Source: Trypanosoma brucei
Lineage: Eukaryota
DNA: 64,000 nt
Assembly (NCBI GenBank): GCA_000002445.1
Contig: CP000071.1
Span: 2,417,191 to 2,481,190, forward strand
Direction of reading: 5' to 3'
Below the pieces are notes generated by a model, which saw only the letters and a program-made list of their open reading frames with translations, was not told the origin of the DNA and made no database searches. Of this stretch, positions 14,000-58,343 are shown one piece after another. The translations under genes were made by a program, and so were the position numbers. Numbering within the stretch: the first letter of the stretch is position 1; every line of letters starts with the position of its first letter.

Positions 14000-14035
14000 G
14001 TTAGGTCACATTATTCCTTGCGTAGTGGAAGTGAA

Positions 14036-25800: not shown

Positions 25801-26550
25801 TATGATGATGATTTCTACGCGGGTATGTTCTTGGTGTACACATACTTTATTTCTAGGTATTGCTTGTGTATATCCACATGCGCAAATATTTATTTATATA
25901 TTTGTACCGTGTAATATTTAATGGGCTGTGATTTCTTTCATTTTCTTTGCAGTAGCAATATTTCTATGGATCTTCATCTTTCAGTTGCTCCCACATCTTG
26001 TCAGTGATTTATCACTATTATTACATTCTTTTGTGAAAATTATATATGTCGTTTCTTTATGATAACTGAATCCAGTTATTCCTTTGTCGTACTCCCTTTT
26101 GTTTCCATTTTCCCCAAAAGGAGAGAGCACACACAACGGTTGGCGTCCCTTTCCACACTTGTTGTTATTGTTATCATTATTATCGGGGTAAACTTAGCAT
26201 TATTCCTCCCCTAGTGTCACTGCTGCTGTCAACTGGGTTATTGTTGTATCTCTTCTCTTTTGTCAGTCTTAGTGATTCAACTGTTGGAGGAAAAGATCAG
26301 GGGCAAGACGTTGTGGTAACGTGTAACGAGATCGGATATCTGTGTTTGAGTTACTGGTTCCGTTTTTTGTTTGCAGTACACATCTCTTTGTTTGTCGACT
26401 TCCTATTGACTTCCAGCACTTTGTATAGAGTTTGCTGCAGATGTATTTATTATCTTCTTTCTGGTATGTCTTTCAAAATCTCTTCGTTTTCACTTGGATG
26501 TTATATTACTATCTTGAAGCGTAAGGTTCGTATCATAATACGCTACCAAT

Positions 26551-28612: not shown

Positions 28613-29558
28613 AATTAAAGGAATTTCTTAAAAGTTTGTGTGTTTTTTTTTGTAATGGCACGTGGCCGGAGGTTTGATGCGAAGTGGTGTCTGGGGTTGG
28701 GCGCAGCTGTTGCAAAATGAGTTACAAGTTATTTCCTTGTCTGTAATTGCGTTGATTTATACTGGAATGGTGACCTGATGCTTTTGTGAGTTTATGATGT
28801 GTTTGGATGTGCTGCGTCTGTTGTTGGATCGCTGAAGTGTAGTTCCTTTAGTGGCGACGTTGAGGTTTGATTTGTGGTTATGTGGTCTCTTTTGTAGCTT
28901 TGTGGTGTTTATGTAGTTTTTTTTCATCTTTTAGCTCTTATTTGCTTCGAGATTCAGTGGTCAGTGAAGCAGTAGTTTTCGAATTTATATCTGTAGCCTT
29001 TCTGTGTCGCTGGGGTTATTGTTTTTATAGTTGAGTTGGATGGTTGTTGTTGTTGCAAGTTTGTGATTAATTGAGTTACATGTTCTCTAGGATCTTATTG
29101 AGAGATATTTAAAGGTTAGTTCGTGCTCTTAATTTAGAGTAAATGAAGATTATGGGGATTGTCTAGTGGCTTTTCAGTGCGTCATACAGCATTTACATAA
29201 TCGGCCGTCTGCTTATCTTTTTTTTTTTTGTGTGTGTGTGGTAGAACCTAATGGAGATATTATTTTTTGCACATTGGTTTTGTGACTTTAGTTTTGGATC
29301 ATCATGCGAGGTATCCCTCCATATTTAGTTGTTTCTTATTATTGCCATTTGCTGTGTGCTTGTCCTCACATCGTTAAGCCATGGATTTGTTATCTGCCGT
29401 TGTCGATTGTGATTTTGTTGAAAGCAGGTGCGTTATTGCTTCCAATCCATTTCTCTTTTTTTCCCTCATCCGTTTCAATGACACACACGTAAGGGATACA
29501 TATTAGTCCCGTTTGTCTTACTTTTGTTCCTCCCTTCTCACCTTTGCAGCTCACTTTT

Positions 29559-42898: not shown

Positions 42899-44344
42899 AT
42901 GAAGAAAGAATCCGTTCCTTCCAAATCAGAAAACACAACGGACTTGCAACCGGAAGGTGTTGATATGCCCGGTGAGCCTCTTGATGTGATCGGTCGTGCC
43001 TTTTCAAATCGTCAACCCAAACATATCGGGCAGGGACTTGCGGATGCCGTCAGAAATGTTGCGGTAGGACTTGGAGTAGGAATAAGTAGTTTTATTGCAC
43101 TTCCAATTGCTGGTGGTAAACGAGAAGGTGCCACAGGTGTTGCTAAAGGAATTGGATTTGGACTTCTCGGGCTTGCAGGTGGTGCCGCTGCCGGTTTGGT
43201 GACGGGTGCCAGACAGTTGGGTCGTGGAGTTGTCAACACAAAAGCGGCTGTTGAGGAAACCATACGAAGGGAACGGTATTGGTGCAGTATAACTGGAGGT
43301 TGGATTGAAGTACGTCTAAATGAGATGTTGGCCGACATTCCCGTAACGGATGATGACATTTATTGTAAGGCACGTGAAGAATACCGTAAAGTCAGTTCGT
43401 CATCATGGGATGGCGCGGCATCTCCATCTGGAAGTGAAGGCAACGACCCCAGTGAGGAAGGTTGTGAAGGTTCATGCGGAAAGGAAGATTACTACAGTCT
43501 AATTGGTGTAGAGAGAACAGCAACAACATCTCAAATACGTGCGGCTTTCCACCGCAAGGCATTGACGTTGCATCCAGATAAAAATACGGGCGATGCGGAG
43601 GCTACTCAGCGCTTTCAGGCCATACTGGAGGCTTATAATGTGTTGAGTAATGACGCACAGCGCTCCGAATATGATGCACGCGGATCTGTAGATATCAACG
43701 CGGGAGAAGGCGGGTTAACTTCTCCAATTGAACAGTCTCTTGGCGCCACGCAATTGGAGCCTTTCATTGGTCGCGTGGAGTGGGCGGTTCATCTCACTCC
43801 ATATGTATATTTTGACAGCGAATTAAGAAAAGAGCTGAAGAAACGGAGGGTTCTGCGTTTGGCCCAAAACCTCGTGCGGTTTGTGGATGGCGACGAGTCG
43901 ACGCTCGAATCCGTGCGACCGTTAATTATCGACGCCGTTTCCACACGAGGTGGCGCGAGACTTATGCCAGTGGTGGCGCAACAATACGCCGCGGCTGCAC
44001 GGCAGCATTTGACGAGCTCTTCCCTTTTGCGCGAAGTGGACAACTTCGGTACGTCAAAATTAGCCTTTTTAGGTGGCGTGGCGGATGCAACAGTGGCATG
44101 TTTAACGACGGCGGTTAAAGCTGCGCGGAAGCGTCTGGATGGAGATGAATTCCTTGACACAGTGTTAGCGCTGTGTGAGTGCGATGTACAGAAAAATGTT
44201 TTGCGCGCGGCCCGCCTTCTTTTTTATGATTTATCAGCATCTGCTGAGCAACGCAATACGCGGGCATATAACTTGTTGAAGCTTAGCAATATGATCAAAG
44301 ATATTTGCCTGTCATGTTCCAGTGTGGTAATTGAAGCACAATAA
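42899..44344 (+). CDS. DnaJ (J-domain) protein, 481 aa. It has an N-terminal Gly-rich hydrophobic segment and a central J-domain.
   Basis: ATG at 42899. The J-domain reads DYYSLIGVERTATTSQIRAAFHRKALTLHPDKNTGDAEATQRFQAILEAYNVLSNDAQRSEYD, with the canonical HPD tripeptide. The N-terminus (GLLGLAGGAAAGLVTGA) is a glycine-zipper-like hydrophobic segment. Confidence 0.85.
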   Translation: MKKESVPSKSENTTDLQPEGVDMPGEPLDVIGRAFSNRQPKHIGQGLADAVRNVAVGLGVGISSFIALPIAGGKREGATGVAKGIGFGLLGLAGGAAAGLVTGARQLGRGVVNTKAAVEETIRRERYWCSITGGWIEVRLNEMLADIPVTDDDIYCKAREEYRKVSSSSWDGAASPSGSEGNDPSEEGCEGSCGKEDYYSLIGVERTATTSQIRAAFHRKALTLHPDKNTGDAEATQRFQAILEAYNVLSNDAQRSEYDARGSVDINAGEGGLTSPIEQSLGATQLEPFIGRVEWAVHLTPYVYFDSELRKELKKRRVLRLAQNLVRFVDGDESTLESVRPLIIDAVSTRGGARLMPVVAQQYAAAARQHLTSSSLLREVDNFGTSKLAFLGGVADATVACLTTAVKAARKRLDGDEFLDTVLALCECDVQKNVLRAARLLFYDLSASAEQRNTRAYNLLKLSNMIKDICLSCSSVVIEAQ

Positions 44345-44868
44345 TATTCCTTATGAAATCAAAAACCAAAAAAGAGTAAAAAAAAAAGAGTTCTCTACTC
44401 ACACTCATCTCATGGGTATACCTTAAGAAACACTAGTAAAGCATCTTTCGCGCTTCCATAAACGTTTTTTAAATTCCAAACTCAAACAGAGACACAGTCA
44501 CGAACGTGCATTTACACCCATAAAGGTATGCGAATACAAATGAATATTCAAATTTATTTATGTGATGTCTATCCACATCTGTGCTGTGCCACCGTTGCTA
44601 TACGGTTGTGTTGTTAAGCAGTAGGCACCTTGGGGTGGCTGCTTGAAAGTTTATGTCATATATACAAAAATTTATTTTTCTGCTTTACCGTTTGTTTCTG
44701 ACAGTGATATTCTTTTCATGGTTTCTTCCTCCATTTACTTTTTTATTCATTCTCCGTAGCCTCACCGCGCGCCTCCCCATTTTGTGTTGGGGTCTCAGTG
44801 TAGTTGGCGCTTCCGTTTTGCTTTTCGTTTTGTTTTGATAGTTTTTTTTTAATTTAAATTTTGATTAA

Positions 44869-46179
44869 ATGAATGTACTTTCTGACATTGCTCACTCGGA
44901 TAGTAGTTTTGGTTCACCCACTGAGAGGGGTGAAATCGCGCAAAGGAAACCAGCGGATGGTAAGCGGGGAAATGATCGGCTGACTATAATGAAAGATTCG
45001 ATACGTGCGCGATCGCGTTTTCATGCGGCAGGTAACTTACGTGCAGCGAAGTTGGCGGATGATGACAGTTCATATGGGACAAAATGCAAAGGAACTCAAG
45101 CCGATGGGAACAGATCAGGAAGAGGTACCCCTCTTTTGAATAATGCTTTCTTTAATTTGTGTCCCTTTTATGAGAAGGAGGCATCTGACGGAGCTGAGCT
45201 GCAGGAACAATCAAAGCATGAAGCCGCCATTGCGAGAAATGATTTGGCAGAGGGGGATGCGGCATTTGATGTACAGTCACTCAATAGCCTCTCCGATATG
45301 CTAAATAATGATGCAAAGGAGGATTACAATCGAGTTTGTACGGTACGACGTCATCACCACGTGGAGCCGCACTTCGGTCTTCTCCCACAACGTTCGCACC
45401 GACTTTCTACGGTTTCCACTGGGAAAATTAGTAGGGACGAGAAACTTCAGGCTCACCCTGAGCGTGTTGTGGACTGTCGTTTTCTCCCAATGGAGGAAAA
45501 ATCTAGGAATTGGTTGCAGAGTTGTTCCGCAAAGGAAGCCTGCAATAGCGTGACGTTGTTGGTGAATCGTGCTGTCGACAACTTTGTTTTAAAGGAGGCG
45601 TCCATCTCCTTTGCGGAAACCGCGTCGAGTCACTCCATTCTCTCACTCGATGACGAGTTAGTTTTTCATAACCCTCTCACTTTCCCCGTGTTTAGTGAGC
45701 CTGGCGAATCCGATGATCAAAGTGAAGCACTGATGAGGTCTAACTTTGTGGCGCTGCTGCCAACATTTGAATCACAGAAGGCCTCGAGTTGTATGAGTGG
45801 AAGTGCGTTCCTACAAATAAATGGGGAACTTTTAACACCAGACGCGAGCAATGCGGTTGAGCTGGCGCCGGAGACCTCACCTGCTATACCAAAAAAGCAT
45901 CAGCGACCACCGTTGTCTGTTGAGGGAGAAGGAATGGAATTATCTTTGCAAGTTGCGCCGAGTGCGTCACTTTACTCGAATGGTGCTGACGAGTTGAATG
46001 CCAATAACAGTTGGAGCAGTTCAGCGAATTGCACGAGTTCTCTTCTTGATTCCTTAGCGGCACTCCCGTTGGAATGGAGTTTAGCCGTAATTCAACTTGT
46101 TTATCGGGAGGAATTGACGCGGAGCGCATTGGTATCAGCGGAGCGTGGCGCTCGAGCGTGCATGATATCCCTCAAGTGA
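44869..46179 (+). CDS. Hypothetical protein (436 aa), Ser/acidic-rich.
   Basis: ATG at 44869 and stop at 46177-46179. No recognisable domain. It lies on the same strand and has compatible spacing in the polycistron. Confidence 0.5.
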   Translation: MNVLSDIAHSDSSFGSPTERGEIAQRKPADGKRGNDRLTIMKDSIRARSRFHAAGNLRAAKLADDDSSYGTKCKGTQADGNRSGRGTPLLNNAFFNLCPFYEKEASDGAELQEQSKHEAAIARNDLAEGDAAFDVQSLNSLSDMLNNDAKEDYNRVCTVRRHHHVEPHFGLLPQRSHRLSTVSTGKISRDEKLQAHPERVVDCRFLPMEEKSRNWLQSCSAKEACNSVTLLVNRAVDNFVLKEASISFAETASSHSILSLDDELVFHNPLTFPVFSEPGESDDQSEALMRSNFVALLPTFESQKASSCMSGSAFLQINGELLTPDASNAVELAPETSPAIPKKHQRPPLSVEGEGMELSLQVAPSASLYSNGADELNANNSWSSSANCTSSLLDSLAALPLEWSLAVIQLVYREELTRSALVSAERGARACMISLK

Positions 46180-48202
46180 CACGGGTCTCCACTTATTGCT
46201 CAAGCGGATCCAAACAATGATATGGGGTCTTCTCCAACTTTCTCGGGTGTGAAGAGGCCGTCCACTTCGTTTACGGAACAAAATACTGTTGAATTTTTTA
46301 ATAGCCAACCTCATAATTAGTTTTCCAATGTTGATGGTGATGCTTTTCTTTTTTTTTTCCCCTCTTCTTCTTCTTCCCCGTTTTGTTTTCTTCTTTCTTT
46401 TTCTGAGGAATGGTGCAGGTGAAGCAACTTTCCTCACACCCCTATTGGATTTTTTTTTTGCGTTCTCCCTCTTTTCTGTGACGTCCGCTGTGCTGGTACG
46501 CCGCTTCTGATGTTAATGATGATCGAAGAAAGGAGCGGATTTGTTTTGCTTTGTTTTTATTTTTCCTCTCTTTCACCCTCCTCTTTTTTTTTTGTGCGTT
46601 TTCCATTTCTCTTTGGTCTTCACTAGGATCGGGAGAAATCGCTTATTGAATCTAAAATTTTTCTTTTTAGATTCGCTCCTCTGTTTATTCTCAACTTTCT
46701 CTTTAACTTTTTCCACCCGTTTTAAGCCACATTGCACCCTTATGTTTCTATTCTCCTGCACGGTTTCATTTTATATTTATTTATTAATACACATGTTTTA
46801 TTATTATTAAAATTAATATACAACGTTATAAATACTTTCTTTCCTTTTTCCCCCTTTCCCCGAGGCAATATGAAAATGTACGTATATAAGTATGCATGTA
46901 TATGTGAACGTGTGGATAAGGTATTAAATTATGTACAAAAGGAAATTGGGAGGACAGCGGATATTTTTCTTTTTTCTTTTTTGCCTTGTGTGTAATAACA
47001 ACAATGACAACAATAATAATAATAATGGTAATAACAACAATAATAATAATTATTATTGTTTGCCGATGTACGTGTAATGTTTCTATGACTTAAAAAACCG
47101 TTGCATCCTTTCAAATGTATTATGTTCCTCCTCAGTGTGGTGATATTATTAATGAAGTATCCGCAGGTTTTGACACATTCATTTCTTTCCTCCGTGCTTT
47201 CTTCTTTCTTCTTTCTTCTTCTTTCTTCTTTTTTGTTTTTTGTTTTGTGTGTGTGCTTGTGTGTATTTGTTTCGGTTTTCTTTTGTTTTGCTGATTCTGT
47301 GTTTTCATTTTTCTTCATTTTCTTCTTGGGCGTTTTGCTTTTGCTTTTGTTTTTTCTTTTTCTTTTACCTTGAGGCGCTACCACACACTTCATTTTTAAA
47401 TTCATTTATTTGTTTGTTTGTTTTTCCATTCATTTCGGTACTGTAGGCGATTTGAAGATTACCGAATGAAAGGACGGGGCCGTAATGACGGAATATTTAA
47501 AAAAAAAACAAAAAGAAGAAAAGAAAAGAGACGAAAATTAAAAGGAGGAAAAAGCGGTAAAAAGAAACAAAAAGCAAAATTAAAAGAGAGCAAAAAAAAA
47601 GAATTAAAGCGATAAATATACTCAAAACTTGTGTGTGCGTTTACGTTTTGAGGTTTCGAGCGCGTTGGTCAGTTTTCTTCTTTTCTTCTTTTCTTCCTTT
47701 TTCTTTGTTTATTTTTCTTGTGCCAACGGAGGTGTTTTCATTAGTGGTGTTTAACAAAAGAAAAGGGTTAGAGGGAGAGAAAGAGGGAAGTAGTTCAGAT
47801 TTTTGTTTTAACCCTTTCTTTTTTCTTTTTATGCAAAGGAAAGTAAAAAAAGAAAAAAAAGTCCACGAAAGGAACGAAAGGAGTAATTAAAAAAAAAAAA
47901 TGAAAAATTGCACTTCTGAGTAAATGAGGGGGAGATCACCTTTTCTTTTCTTTTTTTTTTTCGTTTTAAAATGTAGATATTTAAGTGTTTGAAATTGCGT
48001 AACCTTGCGTGCACTACCTTGTTGTATTTCCGATAATCCGCGTGATCTTTTTTTTTTGTCGCATTGAAATTTATTACCCCTTTCGTGTTTTTTTACTTTT
48101 GTTCCGCTTCGTTTTCTCCTTAACCACATGCCTCCCGCTTGATTTCTGCCATTCTTTTGGAAAGAAGGAAAGAAAGAAACAAACAAACACAAACAAACAA
48201 AG

Positions 48203-48245
<43 letters not shown>

Positions 48246-48254
48246 ATATATATG
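48203..48254. repeat. (AT)n microsatellite inside a 3 kb low-complexity intergenic region (46180-49220).
   Basis: Direct reading. Similar (TA)n/(TG)n runs occur at 42806-42826, 51929-51974 and 52148-52175. Confidence 0.9.
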
Positions 48255-49220
48255 AGTAAATAAATACAAATATTTTATGTGTTTGTGTGTTCTTTCCTCC
48301 GTTGTGACATGTGAGACTTGCCACACTAAGTTCAAGTTGGCGAGAGAACATCACGCATTAAAAAAAAGGAAAAAAAATAATGCAGGAGGAGAGGAGGGAA
48401 ATGTTGGGTGGTGAGGTGATAGTTTTTCTTTTTTCCTTTTTGGGATGGGGGAGGAGGGACAAAATAAAGAAAAAGAAGGCACATATGAAAAGGGGACATT
48501 ATATAAATTAGTCCTTTTAAAACTGAATGCAATTTGTGACGTTTGTTTTTTTGTTTGTTTGATTGTTTCGCTTTAGTTGATACGATACACGTTACTATTC
48601 TGCATGTTGCACTGCAGAGGTCATTTATATCATTTATATATTTGTTCAATTTTTTTTTGCTTCCGGATGCACTTATTGAATTCACCTTTTATTTCCCTGT
48701 TTTTTTTTTGAATTATTTATTTTGGTTTTGGGGTGCCGTTGAGGTTACTCTCACCCGTTTTCACTTCTCTTCTCATTTCTTTTAAACCAAATTTATTTCC
48801 TCTCAATTGACTGCTGTAAATAAAATAAAATAAAAGCACTCAGCAAGACAAGGCACTAGGTTAAAACAAGTCAATAAAAACAACATAACAAGGAAGGTTA
48901 TTCAAAAGAAATTCAAACTTGAATAATTATTGCAACAGGAGAAAAAAAAACGCGAATAAAGCAGTGAAGAGCAAGAGCGGGGTAATAGTTGTTGTTGCGT
49001 ATTTGTGTCTGTGTGTGTGTCTACTCCATTGAGGCCCTCAATCACACCAGTACACTGTCAACACAGAACGAGAGGGAGAAAAAAAAAGAGGTAGAAAGAG
49101 ATCAAAGAGAGGGGAAGAGAATTAAAGCGAGCGTATTAGGCTCATTTAATTACATTTTATTTGTAAGTGAAATCTCAAGAAGTTAACAGATAAACTAATT
49201 CAACAAACCAACTTAAACTT

Positions 49221-51887
49221 ATGGGTTGTGGTGGATCAAAGCCGAGGCCACAACCTCCTCAAATGCCTCCACCACCGCCACCACCAGTTGTTGCACCGCC
49301 GCCGCCGCCGCCACCACCACCACCAGAACCCGTCGCGCCGCCAACACCACCACCAAAATCTCCAACTGTTCAATCCGAAGAATCGGTGGTTGAGGAAGTT
49401 GAGGAGGTGCCATTAACTCCAAGAGCCGCACGCCTTCAGAATGTTATTGCAGCAAAGCAGTCGACTTTTATGTACAACAAATGCACCGTTACCGGTGAGG
49501 TGACACCGTTTTTTCCACCGAAAGGTCGATGTTTCCGCATCATTGATGAGGAGGGTCGCTGGTTCTTCTACAACGACACCATGAACTATGAGATGTGCGT
49601 ACAGGCCTTTTTTTCACCCGATTCGGATGTGAAGCACTGCGGGACAACAACAATAAAAAGCATAAGGAATGGATTAACTGTTATATCTGCCTTTGTATAC
49701 CCACTAGAAACGCTGGAGTTCCTTTCTGGTTCAGTGGAGTTGGGAGCCATGTATGTGTATGCGCAACAGCTTTCTAAGCGGTATTACAGCCATCTTCGTG
49801 TTTTCAGCGTGGATGGTAAGAAGGAGATGGAGACAGTTATGACGCTACCGTGGGAGGAAGTGGACGATGAAGAACTTCTAAAGCTATGTTCAGACTCTTT
49901 TATGCGTTACGCTGATGTGAAATTCCTTCCATCAACTGGTATGTTCTCACGCCTCGATATTGATGGTCGTTTCATTCAACCAGTGGAGGTGCGTCGTCCA
50001 AGCGAGTTTGCTCAATGTGACGAGGAAAATATCGATGCTGTGCGCGGTGTCGTCCTTTCCTCCTGCGTGGAGGCGGGCACGCTTGGAGATTCGTGGTTCG
50101 TAAGTGCGCTTTCCCTGCTTGCCACCGATGAGGAACGCGTCAAGGCGATGTTTGCCTCCACCACACCTGCCGAGAAGCAAATGGGCGCCTACCGTGTCCT
50201 ACTAAACAAAGACGGATGGTGGAAGAACATTCTGGTAGATGACTTTCTTCCAACAGTTGGTGGTGTGCCATGCTACGCACGGTGCATCGATGACCCCGGA
50301 GAGTTGTGGCCATCTTTGCTGCAAAAAGCTTACGCGAAATTGTATGGCTCTTATGCAAGCATCACAGGAGGCGACACACTCCTCGCCCTACAGAACTTTA
50401 CTGGAGCGCCAGTGTACCGATTCGATAAAGCATGGCGTGACGCGGCGACAGATGAGGAGAAAAAGAATGCACTCATTCAGAAGATTATGGGATACGTTGA
50501 AGCTCACAATCCCGTCATTTTGAGCGTTCCAACCGGAAAGGAGGCGAAAACCGCTGTTGCGAATGGTCTTGGAGAGGGTTACTCATACGCGCTACTGTCT
50601 GTCCACAACTTCCCTGAGGAGAACATTACGCTTCTGAAGATGTTCAACCCGTGGGAACCTGCGATGCCGTGGTCCGGTCAGTGGCGAGAAGGTAGCGACA
50701 AGTGGACCGAGCACAGCGAGATACAGTCGAGTTGCGAGCCGTGCTTCGAAGCGCATGACGGTATATTTTTCATCGAATGGTCAGAAGCTGTTGAGGTATT
50801 TAATGGTTGCGGAGTTCTGTACTTGGACGAGAAGCCGGTGTATGACTACCGTGTTGCTGGTGAATTTGACAATGAGCAGCCCAACCTTGCGCTTATGATT
50901 CGGGCAAAGGAAACCGTTGAAGTTATGTTGACTCTCTCGCAGAGGGATAAACGCGGTCTGCCTATAGAGTCGCCTGATGCAAAGCTGTCGCCTGTGTTAC
51001 TGTGTGTTTCCCGCGCCGAGCGAAAAAGGCAAGTTGTGTATCAATGCACCAGCTCTGATCCCGAAACCCCTGCAGAAGGCTTTAACTTTGTTGTGGGGCG
51101 AGACCTTGCAATGAAATGTACCTTTGAGGCCAGGGAAGCGCCATACTTTGTTATTCCTCGCATCCACCGCCGGGGAACATGCGAGGGACGCCGCAGGGGT
51201 TTCGTAATTGGCATTCGGTCCAGTACACCATTGGATGAAAAGCTTGAGATTCACTTCACCACACTTGAGCCTACGTGTCGTGTGTTGCATAACTGCATTA
51301 CATTTACAGCTAACCGAATGCCTGGTGCTGTGCGTGAGTGGCAGATAAAGACGCCTGATGCAGAACCCGCAACATACAGGGGTTGGGGTCTCTCTCCAGC
51401 GGAGGAATTCCATGAAGACGATGAAGGTGCGCTGACAAGGGAATATGTTGTGTCGCAGCCTGAAGAATCCCCAACACCTCAAAGTGAAGCACATGTAAGC
51501 GAAGAGGAGGCAAAACCAGAGGAAGAATGTCAACAGCCTTCTGATGAGAAGCCGCACGAGTTGACGGAAGAACCCGAAGCAGAGGCCGCTGCACCTGAAC
51601 CGATGGGAGAAGGAGATGTGGTGGCGGAAGCGCAACCGGAACTTGCCGTTGAGGAACTTTCGGAAGGGGATGTGGAGGCGAGAGAAGCGCCAGCACCACC
51701 GGAGGAGCCACAAGTAACCGCTGAGCCCGAGTCACCGCAGCAATCAGCGGAACCGGAACCGGAAGCTGCGCCTCCCGCCCCCACTGATGACGGTTCCGCT
51801 TCCGAAAGCTCCGATGATGGACTGGGAAGATTTGCAGCTGATCGTATCGGTGCATTTGCCTTATCGGATGATAGCGACACTGACTAG
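49221..51887 (+). CDS. Calpain-like cysteine peptidase family protein (888 aa), predicted to be catalytically inactive. It has an N-terminal dual-acylation motif, a Pro-rich N-region and an acidic Glu/Pro-rich C-terminal tail.
   Basis: The ATG at 49221 gives MGCGGSKPRP..., with Gly2 for myristoylation and Cys3 for palmitoylation. The calpain catalytic-domain region reads ...VEAGTLGDSWFVSALSLLA, with Ser where the catalytic Cys normally sits (QG.LGDCWLL). The His-box region is degenerate (GEGYSYALLSV versus GHAYS). The architecture resembles the T. brucei cytoskeleton-associated calpain-related proteins (CAP5.5/CAP5.5V type), but that assignment is from memory and not verified. Confidence 0.8.
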   Translation: MGCGGSKPRPQPPQMPPPPPPPVVAPPPPPPPPPPEPVAPPTPPPKSPTVQSEESVVEEVEEVPLTPRAARLQNVIAAKQSTFMYNKCTVTGEVTPFFPPKGRCFRIIDEEGRWFFYNDTMNYEMCVQAFFSPDSDVKHCGTTTIKSIRNGLTVISAFVYPLETLEFLSGSVELGAMYVYAQQLSKRYYSHLRVFSVDGKKEMETVMTLPWEEVDDEELLKLCSDSFMRYADVKFLPSTGMFSRLDIDGRFIQPVEVRRPSEFAQCDEENIDAVRGVVLSSCVEAGTLGDSWFVSALSLLATDEERVKAMFASTTPAEKQMGAYRVLLNKDGWWKNILVDDFLPTVGGVPCYARCIDDPGELWPSLLQKAYAKLYGSYASITGGDTLLALQNFTGAPVYRFDKAWRDAATDEEKKNALIQKIMGYVEAHNPVILSVPTGKEAKTAVANGLGEGYSYALLSVHNFPEENITLLKMFNPWEPAMPWSGQWREGSDKWTEHSEIQSSCEPCFEAHDGIFFIEWSEAVEVFNGCGVLYLDEKPVYDYRVAGEFDNEQPNLALMIRAKETVEVMLTLSQRDKRGLPIESPDAKLSPVLLCVSRAERKRQVVYQCTSSDPETPAEGFNFVVGRDLAMKCTFEAREAPYFVIPRIHRRGTCEGRRRGFVIGIRSSTPLDEKLEIHFTTLEPTCRVLHNCITFTANRMPGAVREWQIKTPDAEPATYRGWGLSPAEEFHEDDEGALTREYVVSQPEESPTPQSEAHVSEEEAKPEEECQQPSDEKPHELTEEPEAEAAAPEPMGEGDVVAEAQPELAVEELSEGDVEAREAPAPPEEPQVTAEPESPQQSAEPEPEAAPPAPTDDGSASESSDDGLGRFAADRIGAFALSDDSDTD

Positions 51888-52138
51888 TTGAGGTGGCTGA
51901 AAGGAAATAAGAGACAGAAAATGTCTACTGTGTGTGTATGTGTGTGTGTGTGCTTATATATATATATATATATGTCTGATAGTAAGTGGTTGTGGTATAT
52001 TAATTATTGGTCTGAATGGCTTTTTTTTTTCTACTTGATTTTGGTGTTGGTGTTGGTGTTTTCTTTTAAAATTATTTTTGTGGAAAGAAAAGTCGGTGGC
52101 CAAAGGTACGTCCACGTGCATAAATATGTAGCAATAAT

Positions 52139-52178
<40 letters not shown>

Positions 52179-53005
52179 GCATATCCGTGTATTTTATTGA
52201 TGCATGCCTGGTGTGTATTTATATCGGTTTGTAAATATTCATTTTCATGTCCATGTCCATGTCCATGGGAAATCGATGTTGCTATTGTTTATTATTTGAA
52301 GAGGAAGAGGAGGGGGGAAGACCGGATACGAAGTGAAAATGAATTTAATTTGGAGGATTGAGTGTAAGTTGGGGGTTATTCCTTCATATCATCCTTCATT
52401 CTTTTAACTATTCCCTTCATTTTTCATTTTCTCATTCTCAACAACAACAACAAAAAAAAAGAAAAAAAAGCAAATATTTATACTGCTACGAACATATAAA
52501 TCTATTTGTACAAATCTACGGAAGAGGCTTGGTTTGAATATTTGTGAGAAGGGAATAAATCATATATTTCTCAAATTTGATGAAAGGAAATCTTCTTTTT
52601 TCCCTTAGAAGAAAATAAAATAAAAAAAGAGAAGCAAATAGAAAGGAAAACTAAAGCGTGTACATAAAAATACGCATTCATGCATTTACATATGTATTTG
52701 TATAGCGTAATAAAATAAAAGAAGAAAAACTAAAGTAAAGCAGAGTGAAGATAAGAAAAGGTAAGATAAAATAAAAGGAATGGGCATTGATTTTCTCCCT
52801 CTTATTTGCGTTTTTTTTTTTGATGGAGAAAAAGTGTCGTTTTTTCCGTTTTTTTTTTGCCTTACTTTGTTGTGAAGCACCGGAGTTGATGGATTGGCGT
52901 GTAATTATTATTATCACTGTTATTATTATTATTATTGTCGTTGTTGTTGTTTTTGTTGTTGTCGAGTGGAGTAAAGTAATTTAGAAAAAGATGTTTTGAG
53001 GTAAG

Positions 53006-53065
53006 NNNNNNNNNNNNNNNNNNNNNNNNNNNNNNNNNNNNNNNNNNNNNNNNNNNNNNNNNNNN
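53006..53065. other. Assembly gap (a run of 60 N).
   Basis: Direct reading. It is flanked by A-rich and (AAGAAT)n low-complexity sequence, 262 nt upstream of the CRAL-TRIO gene start. Confidence 1.
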
Positions 53066-53326
53066 ATTTTTATACGTCCGTGAGCAGACAGGGAGTAGGA
53101 AAGGAAACGAAACCCCATATACGAAAAAAAAAAAATAACTGAGGAAAAGGAATAAGAATAAGAATAAGAAAAGAAAAAGAAAGGGAAGAACAAATAAAAA
53201 AAAAGATAATAATAATAGTAATAAAGGGAACAAAAAAAAAAAAAAGAAAACTGGTTCATTTTTTTACTCCAATTGCTGCATCGTTATCTTTTTCTTTCCG
53301 ATAGAAAAAAAACAAAAGAACCCAAA

Positions 53327-54169
53327 ATGACTTCCTCTTCTTTTCTAGAGGAACTTGGCCCCGTAGCGGTTTCCCATCGGAATGAGTTGGAGGAGGTGAA
53401 GCGTCAGTTGGGTATTGAAAGGAATGAATTGGACTGTTGGATTTATGCTTTTCTGGAGAACAAAAAGTTTGATATCAAAGAAACTGTGGCAAAATTGCAG
53501 CGGCGCTTTGCAATGGAAGTGAGTGAAATGGCCAAATATGAAGTAACGGAAAGCATGCGCTCGTCTCTTCGTTCCGGCATTATTCAAGCAATTGGGGAGG
53601 ATAAATGTGGTCGTACCGTATTTTACGTCACAGTCAGTAGAGATACAAGTTCAGAAGGTACTCGTGAAGAGAAGAAACGGACATTTGACTTGATAGTGAG
53701 TTATGGAACACGGTTACGAGCGGATAACAAACGGTGCCAAATGGTACTGCTCGTGAATTATGAGAACGCAAGTATGTTAAGTAACGTGGACATGTCGCTT
53801 CAGATGGATGTTGCGACGCGCGTGTCCAAATTTTTTCCAGGATGCATCAGTAAAGTCCTGCTGTGCAATATGGGCTCAATTTTGTGTACGTTTATGAAGC
53901 CGGTGTTGGGAACCATGCCGGCTTCTTTTTCCGATACCATTTCGTTATTTTCTTCAAATGATGTGACTAATGGTTCGTTACTTGAATATATCGACAAGAG
54001 CGTCCTTCCCGTACAACTTGGCGGGACAAACGACTGTGATGATCAGGTGCATTGGGACCGTTACGCGGATATTATTGAGAATTATTACCGTGATATGAGG
54101 ATCGCTATTGTGGAGCGAGGGCTAAAGGTGAAGGATTGGGAGTTGGAGTGCCTTTCTGCTAATGAATAA
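53327..54169 (+). CDS. CRAL-TRIO / SEC14-like lipid-binding domain protein (280 aa).
   Basis: The track start at 53273 is TTG and the first ATG is at 53327 (MTSSSFLEELGP...). The CRAL-TRIO N-terminal helix pattern (LDCWIYAFLENKKFDIKETVAKLQRR) fits. GEDKCGRTVFYV matches G.DkeGRPv. The C-terminal ...FMKPVLGTMPASFSDTISLF...LLEYIDKSVLPVQLGG matches the SEC14 lP..lGG end motif. Confidence 0.7.
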   Translation: MTSSSFLEELGPVAVSHRNELEEVKRQLGIERNELDCWIYAFLENKKFDIKETVAKLQRRFAMEVSEMAKYEVTESMRSSLRSGIIQAIGEDKCGRTVFYVTVSRDTSSEGTREEKKRTFDLIVSYGTRLRADNKRCQMVLLVNYENASMLSNVDMSLQMDVATRVSKFFPGCISKVLLCNMGSILCTFMKPVLGTMPASFSDTISLFSSNDVTNGSLLEYIDKSVLPVQLGGTNDCDDQVHWDRYADIIENYYRDMRIAIVERGLKVKDWELECLSANE

Positions 54170-56036
54170 ATAAATGTTGTAATGAAGGTAAATATAAATG
54201 TAATGTGTTCCATTCGCTTCTCATAGGAGGAAGAGAGAAATGGTGATATTTTTGTGTTTCTTTTCTTTTGTTTCATGAATGTGCGTAACATTTCATTTAT
54301 GCAAGGGACATTTCACGCCGACTTCTCCTCGTGTGCCACACACACACACACACACTTGTTTTTTATACACGCGTATCCCCGTGCGTTTAGTTGTGTCCAT
54401 CTTTTTTTTTTTTTATCTTGCTCCAAAAGTATTTTTATACTCCATGCGTGTGTGTCTGCATTTGTCCTTGTTTTTGTTTTTATTGTTATTTGAGTGTGCA
54501 TGTTATTGAAGACCGCATGCATCCACTTTTCATGCTCCTGCAGCACATATTTTGTGTTAGCCCTTCTGTAATATTAATAATTACGCATATTGCGTCAAAA
54601 AGGGAGCCGATTTGTTTGGTGCATTCTTTTTTTTTTGTATTTATTCATTTTTGTGCGGTTGTAGAGGCTCACTTCTGTGCAAAGGAAATTTAAAAGATGG
54701 AGGAAGTTAGTCTTTTTTTCTGTATTTCTAGTTCCACTGTTTTTGCGGTTCCATTCAACAAGAAGAGGAAAATTAAAGAAAAGATACGCCCACCTTCTAC
54801 ATGCAGGTATTTAAATTTTTTTCATTTTTCTTTCTTTTTGTTTTGCTGTTTTTTTTCTTTTTATCCCCTCTCTCTTTTCTTTTTTTTTTTCTGGCGATTA
54901 ATTTTCATGCAATTTACATGCAGTTTTTGACAATTTTTTTTTGTTGTTATGTTTTTGTTACATGTTCTTTCCTTTACTTTTTTTTTTCCATCATTTGCTT
55001 TTGGAATGCAGCGTCTTTACCACCTGCACTGCGGGGCAGATGGTTTGAAACGCTGGAAGCGAAGGAGGACAAAAACAAAACAAAACAAAACAAAACGACA
55101 AAACTCACCCACATAAACGGTTGGCTTGTTAAAATTTTATTTATAATTTTAAGTGGGTATCGAAATATGTTTCGTTATGAATAGTTCATCAACAACCATT
55201 TATTACGAGTGATTGTATTGCCGCAGGGCCTTCATCATCGCCATTTTACTAATTGTCTTTCTTCCCCCCCATTTTTTTTTTTAAAAGAAAAAGTTTTTAA
55301 AAAAATTTTCTTGTAGTTGCATGTGTGTTTGCATTTGTGTTGTTTCCCACTCCTTTTCGTTGCTTTTACATGAAGTTTTTAGTCATATCACTTGTTATTT
55401 GGGGAAATTGGGAGAGAGGTACAAAAGGCAAATGGGAATATATGAGGCGTGTACGTTTTTGTGTTTATATTATAATTGTAATAATGATAATAATTGTTGT
55501 TGTTGTTGTTCTTGTTGCGCGGTGAAACCTCATCAGATATATAATGGAGGGACGGTAAAGATTGGCAGGTGCGAGTAAGTGGTAAATGCAGGGCGAGAGG
55601 AAAATAAAAATATATTTAAAAAAAAATGATTCGGAAGGTGCATGTGTAAATAGCCTCGTTTTTAGTCATTCGCTATTACTGCTCTGAAAACGGGGGTGGA
55701 CTTCTCCCACTCGTCACCAGCTGTGTTTTTTATATATAATTTACTAACAATTGAATTTGTTTCGTCGTTTATTGTTTCATCTTCTCTTTTAATTTTTGTT
55801 ACTTGTGCCTCAAATATCGTGTTTTAGTGACTTTGCTCTACATTTAGAAGCGTTGGGGGAGGAAAGTAATACGGCAGGCAACGACGTGTTGCCACGAAAG
55901 CTTCTAAGAGGAAAAAAAGAAGGTGTGTAGGCAAAAAAAAAAAAGAAAAGAGTGTGTGTGTGAGGGAAGTGCCTTGCGCTAAGTAAGTGACTCAAAGGGG
56001 CTTTACACTGAAAAGCGCGTTAACTTTCACGCCCAT

Positions 56037-58343
56037 ATGCAGAAAAGTATACAAGATGAAGTGCGGTTTAGTTCTTCACCCCGGGTCTTAAGGTCAGCTA
56101 GTCGTGACACCCATAAGGAAATGGAGGAACTTCCTAATGCATCGTCACCTCTTCTTATGCGGCGTGTGGCATCGTTAGACGCACTTCCACCTCGACCTTC
56201 CTCGCGTCATCCCCGCAGTGAAGGCGATAGCGTTCCATCAGTGCTGAATCCCAACCGACAGCTGGAGGATTTATCGCGTGATACGCAGCTACTCAATGCA
56301 TATGGTGGTTCAGACAGCATGCCCGGTATTAATAAGATACCCGTGAAGTCATTTCAACAACATCTGCAGGGAAGGCAATTCCACTTCGCAAAGCATCGGC
56401 TTCCTCAACTCAGTAATGTTCAATCAGCTCGGAGTGTTTCGACACCTGCGCGAAAGGGACGACAGTCACCGCGGTGTCGTTACAATGCACTTCCAGCTTT
56501 ATCTTCAAGCCCACCTCGCACACGTCGTGGCGCTTCGTTTGCACGCCCATATCCCAACAAACCGGGGACGCCGCAGTCCTCTCGTGCTCCCCCCAGACGA
56601 GCCTCAGCACGGCCCATTGCATCTCCTTCTTCTCCATTGGCTGCACCGCTACATCGCGCAGATTCCGTCATCCCTGCAGCAGTTGCTGAAGATTCCTCAG
56701 CAGACGGTAAACAATCTGCGGTGGCGCGAACACGTGGCGGTCGCATACGCGTTGTTGTGCGTAAGCGGCCGTTGCCTCCGGATGAAGAGGGCTGTGATTG
56801 TGTTTCTATGGACCCACCTAATGTGAAGGTTGCGGTGCGGAAGCAGCGTGTGGACCTTACGGAGTATGCGGATGTGAATGACTTTACCTTTGATGACGCT
56901 TTCGGTGAGGATAAACACAATGAACATGTGTTCGATTCGTGTTGTAAGGAACTTCTAGAGACAACGTTGCAAGGTGGTAGTGCCTCATGTTTCGCATACG
57001 GCCAAACAGGAAGTGGCAAAACGCATACAATGCTTGGTAACAGCGGAGAGCGTGGCCTTTATATATTAGCCGCCGCCGCTATTTTTAGTTCGTTAGAGAA
57101 GGATCAGGAGGTGTATGCCTCGCTCTATGAAATTTACTGTAATTCGCTGTTTGACTTGCTCAACAATCGTTCACCCGTCGTAGTGCGTGAGGATCATAAC
57201 CGCCGTATGCATATAACAGGCCTTACGTGGCATGCCGTTACGTCGGCTGAGGAACTTCAGCTACTGATCAACAGTGGAGCTGACCGGCGGAGCACCGGAA
57301 GCACAACTGCTAATGAGCGTTCCAGCCGTTCCCACGCAGTGCTCACCATTCAGGTTAGGGATCGCGAGGACAACAGGTTCTGTGGCACGCTTAACCTTGT
57401 GGATCTAGCAGGTAGCGAACGCGCGGCCGATACCGCCACTAATGATCGTCAGACACGGCAGGAAGGTGCGGAAATTAATAAATCGTTACTCGCCCTCAAG
57501 GAGTGCATCCGTGCGTTAGACGAAAAGAAGAAGCATGTTCCCTTCCGTGGGTCGAAGTTGACGGAGATTCTACGGGACAGCTTCATTGGAAATAGTCGTA
57601 CAGTTATGATTGCCAACATATCGGCATCGTCACAAAACTACGAGCACACCCTCAACACACTGCGATATGCCTTTCGCGTGAAGGGTTTAAGTGTTGTCAA
57701 TTTTGAACCGAGTCGTGCCCGCAATGCACCGCGGCCGCTGAAACCGGTTGTTTCTGACATGAATCCCACGCAAGGAGTTCCTCAGGTAAATGCCGGCCCT
57801 TTGAAAACAACACCGGGGCGGTGGCGTTCGGTCTCATCTAATGCCTTTTTAGCTAACAGGCGTAACGTCTCCTCGGGAAACGCACTTGTACAACAGCGTA
57901 ACCATGTTACCAGCAGTCCTTTGCGTAGTAATAACACTCAGGGAGCAAATATTGCTTCGGGAGCTGGCGAGAATAATTTCGCTGTTTATGTTCGTCAAAT
58001 AGCCGGAGAAGTGGTGGGGAATATTATTCCACAGTTAAGGGCGGATGGGGGTCGTGATTCCTCGCTTCCATCAAACAGTGATTACCTGCAAGAGGAGGGC
58101 TCCGGTGTTTCTTTTAACGATGAATTGATAAGGCAGTTAGAAGATCGTGTTGTTGCAAGGATGAAATTGGATGTGATAAGGTTGGTTAGGGATACAATGC
58201 TGAGGAGGGAGCGTGCTATTTCAAAGTTGCGTAGTGAAAACACGATGTTGAGCAAACTTAATGGGGCGTTAGAAAGGCGTGCCGCGGAGTGTGCGCACTG
58301 TAGAGGGCAGAACACACGTCAAATACAACAGCAACAAAACTAG
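56037..58343 (+). CDS. Kinesin-13 family motor protein (768 aa), of the MCAK-like microtubule-depolymerising class.
   Basis: ATG at 56037. It has a central motor domain with a P-loop (FAYGQTGSGKTHTM), switch I (SSRSHAVLTIQV) and switch II (LVDLAGSER). It also has the kinesin-13 diagnostic KLTEILRDSF motif, a KVD-like neck region (IRVVVRKRPL) preceding the motor, and a C-terminal coiled coil. Confidence 0.85.
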   Translation: MQKSIQDEVRFSSSPRVLRSASRDTHKEMEELPNASSPLLMRRVASLDALPPRPSSRHPRSEGDSVPSVLNPNRQLEDLSRDTQLLNAYGGSDSMPGINKIPVKSFQQHLQGRQFHFAKHRLPQLSNVQSARSVSTPARKGRQSPRCRYNALPALSSSPPRTRRGASFARPYPNKPGTPQSSRAPPRRASARPIASPSSPLAAPLHRADSVIPAAVAEDSSADGKQSAVARTRGGRIRVVVRKRPLPPDEEGCDCVSMDPPNVKVAVRKQRVDLTEYADVNDFTFDDAFGEDKHNEHVFDSCCKELLETTLQGGSASCFAYGQTGSGKTHTMLGNSGERGLYILAAAAIFSSLEKDQEVYASLYEIYCNSLFDLLNNRSPVVVREDHNRRMHITGLTWHAVTSAEELQLLINSGADRRSTGSTTANERSSRSHAVLTIQVRDREDNRFCGTLNLVDLAGSERAADTATNDRQTRQEGAEINKSLLALKECIRALDEKKKHVPFRGSKLTEILRDSFIGNSRTVMIANISASSQNYEHTLNTLRYAFRVKGLSVVNFEPSRARNAPRPLKPVVSDMNPTQGVPQVNAGPLKTTPGRWRSVSSNAFLANRRNVSSGNALVQQRNHVTSSPLRSNNTQGANIASGAGENNFAVYVRQIAGEVVGNIIPQLRADGGRDSSLPSNSDYLQEEGSGVSFNDELIRQLEDRVVARMKLDVIRLVRDTMLRRERAISKLRSENTMLSKLNGALERRAAECAHCRGQNTRQIQQQQN

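What the first reader, a model, noticed from the sequence alone, without database searches (positions are those of the whole stretch)
49221..51887. Dually acylated calpain-like pseudoprotease with Pro-rich N-region and acidic EP-rich C-tail
MGCGGS at the N-terminus is a textbook myristoylation-plus-palmitoylation signal. Thirty-plus prolines follow (PPPPPPVVAPPPPPPPPPPEPVAPPTPPP). The calpain catalytic-core homology has the active-site Cys replaced by Ser (GTLGDSWFVSAL) and no canonical His box, so the protein is almost certainly non-catalytic. The last 150 aa are Glu/Pro/Ala-rich quasi-repeats (EPEAEAAAPEP..., EPESPQQSAEPEPEAAPPAP). This matches the kinetoplastid cytoskeleton-associated calpain-related proteins. 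Together with the neighbouring AATs, CRAL-TRIO gene and kinesin-13, the gene order suggests the T. brucei chromosome 4/8 duplicated block that holds CAP5.5 and CAP5.5V. That link is a recollection and needs a search.
Basis: partly seen in the sequence, partly recalled or inferred. Interest (0 to 1): 0.5.

Follow-up and report, generated by a model that had tools for sequence, protein, structure and literature searches.

The report
Known trypanosome pseudo-calpain gene CAP5.5V

Summary
The ORF at 49221-51887 (+) is real. It encodes 888 aa and is 100% identical to T. brucei TREU927 XP_847656.1 on the 2.48-Mb chromosome 8 contig. Its 853-aa paralogue (78.7% identity) clusters with the original CAP5.5 sequence AAG48626.1 on chromosome 4, so this gene is CAP5.5V (Tb927.8.8330).

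The described features hold:
- An MGCGGSK dual-acylation motif.
- A Pro-rich disordered N-region.
- A DUF1935/SMP-1 domain.
- A calpain core with Ser291-Tyr454-Asn476 in place of Cys-His-Asn.
- A calpain domain-III-like beta-sandwich.
- A disordered acidic tail with biased composition but no true repeats.

Synteny with chromosome 4 was shown directly. Published work already covers the protein: bloodstream-specific, essential, and needed to organise the subpellicular microtubule corset. The finding is therefore already known.

One side observation may be new. Synonymous divergence between CAP5.5V and CAP5.5 falls to about 0 in the calpain core, including a 281-nt identical tract, while the tail, the UTRs and neighbouring duplicon genes are saturated. 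This points to chr4-chr8 gene conversion confined to the coding core.

The parts
49221..51887 (+). CAP5.5V (Tb927.8.8330) coding sequence, 888 codons plus stop
   Evidence: ORF. Exact match to XP_847656.1 / Q57WJ7 of T. brucei TREU927.
49221..49241 (+). N-terminal dual-acylation motif MGCGGSK: Gly2 for N-myristate, Cys3 for S-palmitate
   Evidence: Fits G-{EDRKHPFYW}-x(2)-[STAGCN]-{P}. MGC is present in all full-length homologues. Acylation was shown experimentally for the paralogue CAP5.5 and palmitoylation for T. cruzi CAP5.5 (PMC13317235); for CAP5.5V itself it is inferred.
49242..49406 (+). Pro-rich, predicted-disordered N-region (residues 8-62), including a 10-Pro run encoded by CCG/CCA triplet runs at 49296-49325
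   Evidence: 66% Pro in residues 7-47. pLDDT below 50. TRF triplet runs. 17 extra residues relative to CAP5.5. P10 in TREU927 against P11 in DAL972.
49467..49769 (+). DUF1935 / SMP-1-like beta-sandwich (kinetoplastid calpain 'domain I-K'), residues 83-183
   Evidence: Pfam PF09149 at 3.7e-26. PDB 2fe0 SMP-1 at 2.8e-14. Foldseek TM 0.76 to 2fe0.
49914..50807 (+). Calpain protease-core homology (PC1-PC2), residues 232-529, non-catalytic
   Evidence: Pfam PF00648 at 1.8e-46, covering profile positions 3-292 of 297. Calpain-5, -3, -8, -1 and -2 cores at 1e-25 to 1e-19. Foldseek TM 0.71-0.76 normalised to the core structures.
50091..50093 (+). Ser291 at the catalytic Cys position
   Evidence: Alignment to calpain-5 GQVGNCWF. 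This column varies across the family: S/T/H/N/K/V/C.
50580..50582 (+). Tyr454 at the catalytic His position
   Evidence: GLGEGYSYAL against GLVKGHAYAV. His is kept only in the two deepest homologues, P0019 and P0020.
50646..50648 (+). Asn476, the retained third triad residue
   Evidence: NPW motif aligned to calpain-5 and calpain-3. Invariant in the family.
50808..51395 (+). Calpain domain-III-like (C2-like / CBSW) beta-sandwich, residues 530-725; no Pfam hit
   Evidence: AF2 pLDDT about 90, all-beta. Full-length m-calpain structures align over 507-569 columns against about 330 for core-only entries, and the calpain-7 C2-like domain 2qfe hits.
51396..51884 (+). Acidic Glu/Ala/Pro-rich disordered C-terminal tail, residues 726-888
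   Evidence: Net charge -45, pI 4.05. pLDDT about 30. No significant internal repeats. Absent from Leishmania orthologues.
49980..50429 (+). Tract nearly identical to the chr4 paralogue CAP5.5 (450 nt, 3 differences); putative gene-conversion tract
50595..50875 (+). 281-nt tract 100% identical to the chr4 paralogue CAP5.5; putative gene-conversion tract
   Evidence: 0 of 20000 permutations reach 281 nt, mean maximum 37. Same tract within the DAL972 genome.

Best explanation
The ORF is CAP5.5V (Tb927.8.8330, also called CALP8.1), the chromosome 8, bloodstream-form paralogue of the T. brucei cytoskeleton-associated calpain-related protein CAP5.5.

Shown here:
- Exact identity to the TREU927 chr8 protein.
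- The architecture: acylation motif, then a Pro-rich disordered linker, a DUF1935/SMP-1 beta-sandwich, a calpain PC1-PC2 core, a calpain domain-III-like beta-sandwich, and an acidic disordered tail.
- Triad positions S291-Y454-N476.
- Synteny with the chr4 copy.

Taken from the literature:
- CAP5.5V is expressed in bloodstream forms under UTR control.
- It localises to the cell-body periphery and not the flagellum.
- It is essential. Depletion disorganises the subpellicular microtubule corset, mispositions organelles and causes aberrant cytokinesis.
- The paralogue CAP5.5 is both N-myristoylated and S-palmitoylated.

Inferred mechanism: Gly2-myristate and Cys3-palmitate hold the N-terminus in the inner leaflet of the plasma membrane. 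The roughly 55-residue Pro-rich segment acts as an extended spacer. The folded DUF1935, dead calpain core and domain III module binds the subpellicular microtubules or their cross-linking proteins as a non-enzymatic scaffold. The protein would thus work as a membrane-to-corset linker or organiser needed when new microtubules are inserted during the cell cycle. It is not a protease, and probably not Ca2+-regulated, because there is no EF-hand domain and the core Ca2+-site ligands are degenerate.
For: Identity:
- Exact match to XP_847656.1 on the 2,481,190-bp contig.
- The 853-aa paralogue cluster contains AAG48626.1 'CAP5.5' and XP_844545.1 on the 1,590,432-bp contig.
- 667/848 = 78.7% identity to CAP5.5, against 78.9% published for the CAP5.5V/CAP5.5 pair (PMC13317235).
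- Gene IDs and stage specificity come from PMC11858757.
- Duplicon locus 71 is in PMC2212663.
- The window is collinear with DAL972 chr8 at 98%, and shares DnaJ - hyp - calpain - CRAL_TRIO with chr4.

Architecture: Pfam, PDB sequence hits, AF2 model with pLDDT about 90 over residues 62-726, Foldseek.

Dead enzyme:
- S291 and Y454.
- 'SYN' was published for CAP5.5 (PMC4181241).
- The nucleophile column is free to vary across orthologues.

Acylation: motif conserved in all full-length homologues, with experimental data for CAP5.5 and TcCAP5.5.

Linker model and phenotypes: PMC8625193, PMC4152294, PMC7912814.

Dosage sensitivity: overexpression of Tb927.8.8330 in bloodstream forms causes rapid death (PMC9184580).
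Against: - No tool here can show lipidation, localisation or microtubule binding of CAP5.5V itself.
- I found no lipidation dataset for T. brucei in the held library, and the primary CAP5.5V paper (Olego-Fernandez 2009) is not held.
- In Leishmania, YnMyr tagging of CAP5.5 did not respond to NMT inhibition (PMC4372256), so the lipid chemistry in orthologues is not fully straightforward.
- Which part contacts microtubules is unknown. The strongly acidic tail (net -45) is an unlikely direct binder of the acidic tubulin surface.
- The literature itself says the link to microtubules is 'direct or indirect'.
- The link from accession XP_847656.1 to the ID Tb927.8.8330 rests on chromosome size, paralogue identity and gene order, not on a TriTrypDB look-up.
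Confidence: 0.88

Rival explanations
1. The gene is the procyclic-form copy CAP5.5 (Tb927.4.3950) rather than CAP5.5V.
For: Same architecture and the same first seven residues, MGCGGSK.
Against: - Only 78.7% identity to all three independent CAP5.5 sequences, including AAG48626.1.
- 888 aa against 853 aa.
- Exact match to the protein on the 2.48-Mb chr8 contig.
- The window is collinear at 98% with DAL972 chr8 (FN554971.1). The chr4 locus carries an extra calpain-like gene and an AAT gene that the window lacks.
Confidence: 0.01
2. It is an active, unconventional peptidase that uses Ser291 as nucleophile, and its essential role is proteolytic.
For: - Ser occupies the nucleophile position and Asn476 is retained.
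- The protein was handled among 'released peptidases', and its overexpression kills bloodstream forms (PMC9184580).
Against: - The general-base His is replaced by Tyr454.
- The nucleophile column is S/T/H/N/K/V/C among orthologues, so there is no selection for a nucleophile.
- Several residues at core Ca2+-ligand positions are replaced: Cys282, Pro483 and Ile515. The alignment columns are; the residue roles are from my knowledge of the mu-calpain core structure.
- Reviews conclude that these proteins lack proteolytic activity (PMC7912814, PMC4181241).
Confidence: 0.03
3. It is mainly a membrane-tethered signalling or regulatory scaffold (a pseudoenzyme that binds and sequesters partners), and the corset defects after depletion are indirect.
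For: - Pseudo-proteases often keep substrate-binding clefts.
- An early proposal gave CAP5.5 a role in signal transduction beyond its structural one (PMC4181241).
- The long disordered Pro-rich and acidic segments are typical of interaction hubs.
- Overexpression is toxic.
Against: - The family is stably detergent-resistant and cytoskeleton-associated.
- Depletion directly disorganises microtubule spacing and membrane apposition.
Confidence: 0.1
4. For the side observation: the near-zero synonymous divergence in the core comes from nucleotide-level constraint, a mutational cold spot or an assembly artefact, not from chr4-chr8 gene conversion.
For: - The TREU927 and DAL972 CAP5.5V orthologues also show 0 differences over 870 nt of the core (gene nt 985-1854) against 22 overall, which hints at a locally low substitution rate.
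- Only one chr4 DNA sequence (DAL972) was available.
Against: - dS is 0.00-0.05 in the core, above 1 in the tail of the same gene, and 1.9-4.1 in flanking duplicon genes. That is too large a contrast for codon bias.
- The tract boundaries are sharp and the permutation test gives p < 5e-5.
- The same tracts appear within one genome.
- Protein identity in the tracts holds for three independently determined CAP5.5 sequences.
Confidence: 0.2

Closest known systems
T. brucei CAP5.5 (Tb927.4.3950; AAG48626.1), the procyclic-form paralogue
   Same: Same domain order and the same MGCGGSK N-terminus. Same S-Y-N triad positions. 78.7% identity overall, reaching 94/94 and 148/150 in two core tracts. Analogous RNAi phenotype.
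   Different: - On chr4, and 853 aa rather than 888 aa.
- Its longest Pro run is 4, against 10 here, and it has 16 Pro in the N-region against 30.
- The tail is strongly diverged: 53/140 identical, dN about 0.5.
- The UTRs are unrelated.
- Opposite stage specificity.
T. cruzi, T. rangeli and Leishmania CAP5.5 orthologues (e.g. TcYC6_0107360)
   Same: DUF1935 plus calpain core plus domain III, with an MGC(C) acylation motif. 35-51% identity. TcCAP5.5 is palmitoylated and pellicular.
   Different: - Single copy.
- The nucleophile position is His or Asn in the T. cruzi clade, and Ser or Cys in leishmaniine and other members.
- Leishmania proteins end just after domain III, with no acidic tail.
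- There is no long polyproline run.
Classical calpains (m-calpain/CAPN2, calpain-1, -3, -5)
   Same: Homologous PC1-PC2 core (E 1e-25 to 1e-19, 22-25% identity) and a C2-like domain III. Asn of the triad and the NPW motif are kept.
   Different: - Cys changed to Ser and His to Tyr.
- No PEF/EF-hand domain and no small subunit.
- Several residues at core Ca2+-ligand positions are replaced.
- Has a kinetoplastid-specific DUF1935 domain, lipid anchor and disordered termini.
Leishmania SMP-1 (small myristoylated protein 1; PDB 2fe0)
   Same: The DUF1935 fold (38% identity, TM 0.76), and an N-terminal myristoylation/palmitoylation signal that targets the protein to the inner face of a surface membrane.
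   Different: SMP-1 consists of this domain alone and goes to the flagellar membrane. CAP5.5V carries the calpain module and is excluded from the flagellum.

Membership tests
Calpain superfamily (Peptidase_C2 / MEROPS C2 homologues) | Sequence and fold homology of the PC1-PC2 protease core | tested here: met
   PF00648 at 1.8e-46, covering 290 of 297 profile positions. Calpain-5 at 2.6e-25. Foldseek TM 0.71-0.76 to the core structures.
Calpain superfamily (as active peptidases) | Cys-His-Asn catalytic triad | tested here: not met
   Ser291, Tyr454 and Asn476 at the three positions. It is a homologue but not a peptidase.
Classical calpains | C-terminal penta-EF-hand domain and intact Ca2+ sites in the core | tested here: not met
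   No EF-hand domain in Pfam; the C-terminus is a disordered acidic tail. Positions aligned to the core Ca2+ ligands are Cys282, Glu361, Pro483, Glu490, Asp513 and Ile515 (alignment). The ligand assignment is from my own knowledge and is not tool-verified.
Classical and C2-type calpains | Domain III (C2-like / CBSW beta-sandwich) after the core | tested here: met
   Residues 530-725 are all-beta with pLDDT about 90. Full-length m-calpain aligns over 507-569 columns, and 2qfe hits. Pfam shows no sequence-level hit.
Kinetoplastid CAP5.5 group (calpain-like proteins with domain I-K) | DUF1935 domain N-terminal to the calpain core | tested here: met
   PF09149 at 3.7e-26. All 19 homologues carry PF09149 plus PF00648.
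Kinetoplastid CAP5.5 group | N-terminal MGC dual-acylation motif | tested here: met
   MGCGGSK fits the PROSITE-type pattern, with Cys3. Present in all full-length homologues.
Kinetoplastid CAP5.5 group | Actual N-myristoylation and S-palmitoylation | not testable with these tools
   Shown for CAP5.5 (Hertz-Fowler 2001, as cited) and palmitoylation for TcCAP5.5. Inferred for CAP5.5V.
CAP5.5V (Tb927.8.8330) specifically | Chromosome 8 copy of the chr4/chr8 duplicon pair, distinct from CAP5.5 | tested here: met
   Exact match to the chr8-sized contig protein. 78.7% identity to CAP5.5 sequences. Collinear with DAL972 chr8. Locus 71 in Jackson 2007. Gene IDs.
CAP5.5V specifically | Bloodstream-form-specific expression, pellicular cytoskeletal localisation, essentiality | not testable with these tools
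   From the literature only: PMC11858757, PMC4152294, PMC8625193.

The most novel reading that the evidence does not exclude
The coding core of CAP5.5V (chr8) and CAP5.5 (chr4) may be kept almost identical by recurrent interchromosomal gene conversion. The evidence is a 281-nt identical tract and a 450-nt tract with 3 differences, with dS of 0-0.05 against more than 1 in the tail and 1.9-4.1 in neighbouring duplicon genes. The conversion stops short of the polyproline N-region, the acidic tail and the UTRs.

If so, the two stage-specific isoforms share one homogenised folded module. All isoform-specific function and regulation would then sit in the disordered termini and the UTRs.

The duplicon study stated that no evidence for trans conversion was seen, and I found no report of this in the held literature. 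The primary CAP5.5V paper could not be read. The probability given covers both conditions: that the conversion is real and that it is unreported.
Probability: 0.4. Interest if true: 0.3.

Novelty: already known. Interest (0 to 1): 0.12.

Why it matters
The finding as stated adds nothing new. CAP5.5V, its acylation motif, Pro-rich region, dead triad, acidic tail, chr4/chr8 origin, stage-specific UTR control and essential morphogenetic role are all published.

It is useful mainly as a positive control, showing that the first-stage reader can recognise a kinetoplastid pseudo-calpain and its genomic context from raw sequence.

The conversion mosaic is the only part that could matter. It would tell experimenters that the folded modules of the two isoforms are interchangeable, and that domain-swap work should focus on the termini. 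It would also correct the statement that the chr4/chr8 duplicon shows no trans gene conversion.

Tried and rejected
- The look-up of encoding contigs found no record for the window protein itself or for TREU927 CAP5.5. The DNA comparisons therefore used the DAL972 chr4 and chr8 loci.
- The primary CAP5.5V paper (Olego-Fernandez 2009, PMID 19656721) is not held. Phenotypes are cited second-hand, and I cannot exclude that it already noted the identical core.
- Searches for T. brucei lipidation proteomics covering Tb927.8.8330 found only the Leishmania YnMyr study and a bioinformatic N-myristoylome.
- The tail 'quasi-repeat' idea was tested with TRF and k-mer shuffles and rejected.
- I considered whether the 805-aa T. 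b. gambiense protein is a real N-terminal truncation. It is not: the upstream DNA encodes the full MGCGGS/polyPro N-terminus in frame.
- I considered CAP5.5 as the identity and rejected it.
Full report
**Observation**

The window carries one uninterrupted ORF at 49221-51887 on the + strand, 888 codons plus stop. An in-frame stop lies 10 codons upstream of the ATG. The quoted strings are all present:
- MGCGGSK at residues 1-7.
- A Pro-rich stretch with 30 Pro in residues 1-82, 27 of them in residues 7-47, and a run of ten.
- GTLGDSWFVSAL, with Ser291.
- A C-terminal 163 residues that are 23% Glu, 15% Ala and 13% Pro, with net charge -45.

Pfam finds DUF1935 (residues 83-183, 3.7e-26) and Peptidase_C2 (residues 232-529, 1.8e-46).

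**Identity**

The protein is identical, end to end, to T. brucei brucei TREU927 XP_847656.1 / AAZ13590.1 / Q57WJ7 ('calpain, putative'), which sits on a 2,481,190-bp contig. The closest other protein is an 853-aa T. brucei sequence at 75-79% identity. The 90% cluster of that sequence contains AAG48626.1, 'cytoskeleton-associated protein CAP5.5', and TREU927 XP_844545.1, 'CAP5.5, putative', on a 1,590,432-bp contig.

The window protein is 667/848 = 78.7% identical to TREU927 CAP5.5. This matches the 78.9% published for the CAP5.5V/CAP5.5 pair (PMC13317235). The literature assigns CAP5.5V to Tb927.8.8330 (bloodstream form) and CAP5.5 to Tb927.4.3950 (procyclic form) (PMC11858757). Jackson 2007 lists this pair as locus 71 of the chr4/chr8 duplicon (PMC2212663). 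The contig sizes agree with my knowledge of chromosomes 8 and 4. The gene is therefore CAP5.5V.

**Genomic context**

All large ORFs in the window are on the + strand, as expected for a kinetoplastid polycistronic unit. Around the gene the order is: AAT genes (36062, 39343), a DnaJ protein (42899), a 436-aa hypothetical (44869), CAP5.5V, a DUF7353/CRAL_TRIO protein (53273), and an internal-motor kinesin (56037).

The T. b. gambiense chr8 locus (FN554971.1, L002) has the same order and is 98% identical to the window over 43484-56618. The chr4 locus (FN554967.1, L001) has DnaJ, a hypothetical, CAP5.5, an extra 792-aa calpain-like gene, an AAT gene and then CRAL_TRIO. The DnaJ, hypothetical and CRAL_TRIO genes match the window at 65-72% nucleotide identity.

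**Anatomy**

An AlphaFold2 model built on 19 homologues has pLDDT of about 90 for residues 62-726 and below 50 for residues 1-61 and 727-888. Foldseek against the PDB gives three results:
- Calpain protease cores at TM 0.71-0.76, normalised to the target.
- Full-length m-calpain chains aligned over 507-569 columns, against about 330 for core-only entries, plus the calpain-7 C2-like domain (2qfe). Residues 530-725, which have no Pfam hit, are therefore a calpain domain-III-type beta-sandwich.
- Leishmania SMP-1 (2fe0, TM 0.76, 38% identity) for the DUF1935 domain.

There is no EF-hand domain.

**Catalytic and Ca2+ sites**

In the HMMER alignments to calpain-5 and calpain-3:
- The catalytic Cys aligns with Ser291.
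- The His aligns with Tyr454.
- The Asn is retained as Asn476, which is invariant in the family.

This is the 'SYN' pattern published for CAP5.5 (PMC4181241).

Across orthologues the nucleophile column reads S/T/H/N/K/V/C. His survives only in the two most distant homologues, P0019 and P0020, which keep a full C-H-N triad. Catalysis was therefore lost stepwise, and the position is no longer constrained.

The columns that align with the core Ca2+ ligands of mu-calpain (D106, E185, E302, D309, D331, E333) are Cys282, Glu361, Pro483, Glu490, Asp513 and Ile515 (alignment). The ligand assignment comes from my knowledge of the mu-calpain core structure and is not tool-verified. On this reading both sites look degenerate.

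**Termini**

The N-terminus fits the PROSITE-type N-myristoylation pattern, with Cys3 available for palmitoylation. Every full-length homologue carries MGC. Myristoylation and palmitoylation were shown experimentally for CAP5.5, and palmitoylation for T. cruzi CAP5.5. For CAP5.5V itself acylation is an inference from the identical first seven residues.

Relative to CAP5.5, CAP5.5V has a 17-residue insertion that creates the polyproline run. The run is encoded by CCG/CCA triplet runs. It is P10 in TREU927 and P11 in DAL972.

The acidic tail is compositionally biased but not repetitive. It is poorly conserved even against CAP5.5, with 53/140 identical. Leishmania orthologues lack it.

**Mechanism**

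Shown here: the architecture, the dead active site and the conserved lipidation motif.

From the literature:
[quoted passage not shown] - Overexpression of Tb927.8.8330 kills bloodstream forms rapidly.

Inferred:
- The lipids anchor the N-terminus.
- The Pro-rich segment is an extended spacer.
- The folded DUF1935, pseudo-calpain and domain III module is the cytoskeleton-binding scaffold.
- The acidic tail is a dispensable or modulatory appendage rather than the microtubule-binding element.

**Side observation: mosaic divergence from CAP5.5**

Nei-Gojobori estimates, CAP5.5V against CAP5.5:

| Region (codons) | dS |
|---|---|
| 1-260 | about 0.35-0.64 |
| 281-420 | 0.02-0.05 |
| 481-540 | 0.00 |
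| 560-700 | 0.22-0.37 |
| tail | above 1 |

The syntenic neighbours are saturated: DnaJ 1.9, the hypothetical 2.7 and CRAL_TRIO 4.1.

- There is a 281-nt perfectly identical tract (window 50595-50875) and a 450-nt tract with three differences (49980-50429). None of 20000 permutations reaches 281 nt; the mean maximum is 37.
- The same tracts appear when chr8 and chr4 are both taken from DAL972.
- Protein identity in the tracts holds for three independently determined CAP5.5 sequences.
- No nucleotide similarity extends into the UTRs.

The simplest reading is interchromosomal gene conversion confined to the coding core. Jackson 2007 wrote that no evidence for trans conversion was seen in the duplicon, and I found no report of it elsewhere. 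The primary CAP5.5V paper is not held.

One caveat applies. The TREU927 and DAL972 orthologues also have no differences over 870 nt of the core, so some local rate reduction cannot be excluded.

**Verdict**

Novelty is 'already known' and interest is low. The conversion mosaic is a modest lead that may be unreported.

Noticed in passing
window 49980-50429 and 50595-50875, against L001 10001-12562: Mosaic synonymous divergence between CAP5.5V and its chr4 paralogue CAP5.5. dS is about 0-0.05 in the calpain core, including a 281-nt identical tract (permutation p < 5e-5). It is above 1 in the tail and 1.9-4.1 in neighbouring duplicon genes, and there is no UTR similarity. This looks like chr4-chr8 gene conversion limited to the coding core. 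Jackson 2007 reported no evidence for trans conversion in this duplicon.
   Followed up: yes
window 53006-53065: A run of 60 N between CAP5.5V and the CRAL_TRIO gene. The collinear T. b. gambiense chr8 sequence has about 1.33 kb of low-complexity, poly-T/GGA-rich intergenic DNA here (L002 9540-10869). The window therefore has an assembly gap or mask in the intergenic region downstream of CAP5.5V, where its stage-regulating 3' UTR is expected to lie.
   Followed up: partly
L002 5749-8418 (T. b. gambiense DAL972 chr8, FN554971.1): The public gambiense CAP5.5V model (CBH13923.1, 805 aa) starts at an internal Met. The DNA 252 nt upstream encodes the full MGCGGS/polyPro N-terminus in frame, giving 889 aa. 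The truncation is an annotation error that hides the acylation signal.
   Followed up: yes
window 49296-49325; L002 about 5820-5860: The polyproline run, encoded by CCG/CCA triplet runs, varies in length: P10 in TREU927 and P11 in DAL972. It sits in a 17-residue insertion absent from CAP5.5, whose longest Pro run is 4. The N-terminal spacer thus appears to be expanding in the bloodstream isoform.
   Followed up: partly
L001 15386-20297 (DAL972 chr4): Between CAP5.5 and CRAL_TRIO, chr4 carries a second calpain-like gene (792 aa; DUF1935 plus Peptidase_C2; no MGC start; GELGDSYF at the nucleophile site) and an AAT gene. Both are missing from the chr8 window, which indicates differential loss or gain after the duplication.
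   Followed up: partly
alignment A1: P0019, P0020, P0012, P0014 compared with the rest: The two most distant CAP5.5-like homologues (an environmental sequence and Strigomonas) keep an intact Cys-His-Asn triad. Two others keep Cys with Tyr at the His position. Trypanosoma and Leishmania members have lost both. The loss of catalysis was therefore stepwise. Leishmania orthologues also lack the acidic tail entirely.
   Followed up: partly
window 13618-27933: A dimorphic tandem array of amino acid transporter genes (466-aa and 461-aa types alternating) with a repeat offset of 8239 bp. The two 466-aa copies are 1392/1401 nt identical and the 461-aa copies 1334/1386. A third, 460-aa copy is more diverged.
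   Followed up: partly
window 9025-11652: An 875-aa ORF with a full-length match to CCDC39 (PF24161, 6.6e-75), the axonemal 96-nm ruler protein.
   Followed up: no
window 29544-32381: A 945-aa ORF whose only Pfam match is a 41-residue fragment of the cyclic-nucleotide phosphodiesterase catalytic domain (PF00233, 7.9e-09, profile positions 1-41 of 238). It may be a degenerate or highly divergent PDE-like protein.
   Followed up: no
window 50205-51074 (gene nt 985-1854), against L002: The TREU927 and DAL972 CAP5.5V orthologues show no differences over 870 nt of the core, although 22 differences occur across the gene. This is unexpectedly low. It is either a by-product of homogenisation with CAP5.5 or a sign of nucleotide-level constraint.
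   Followed up: no
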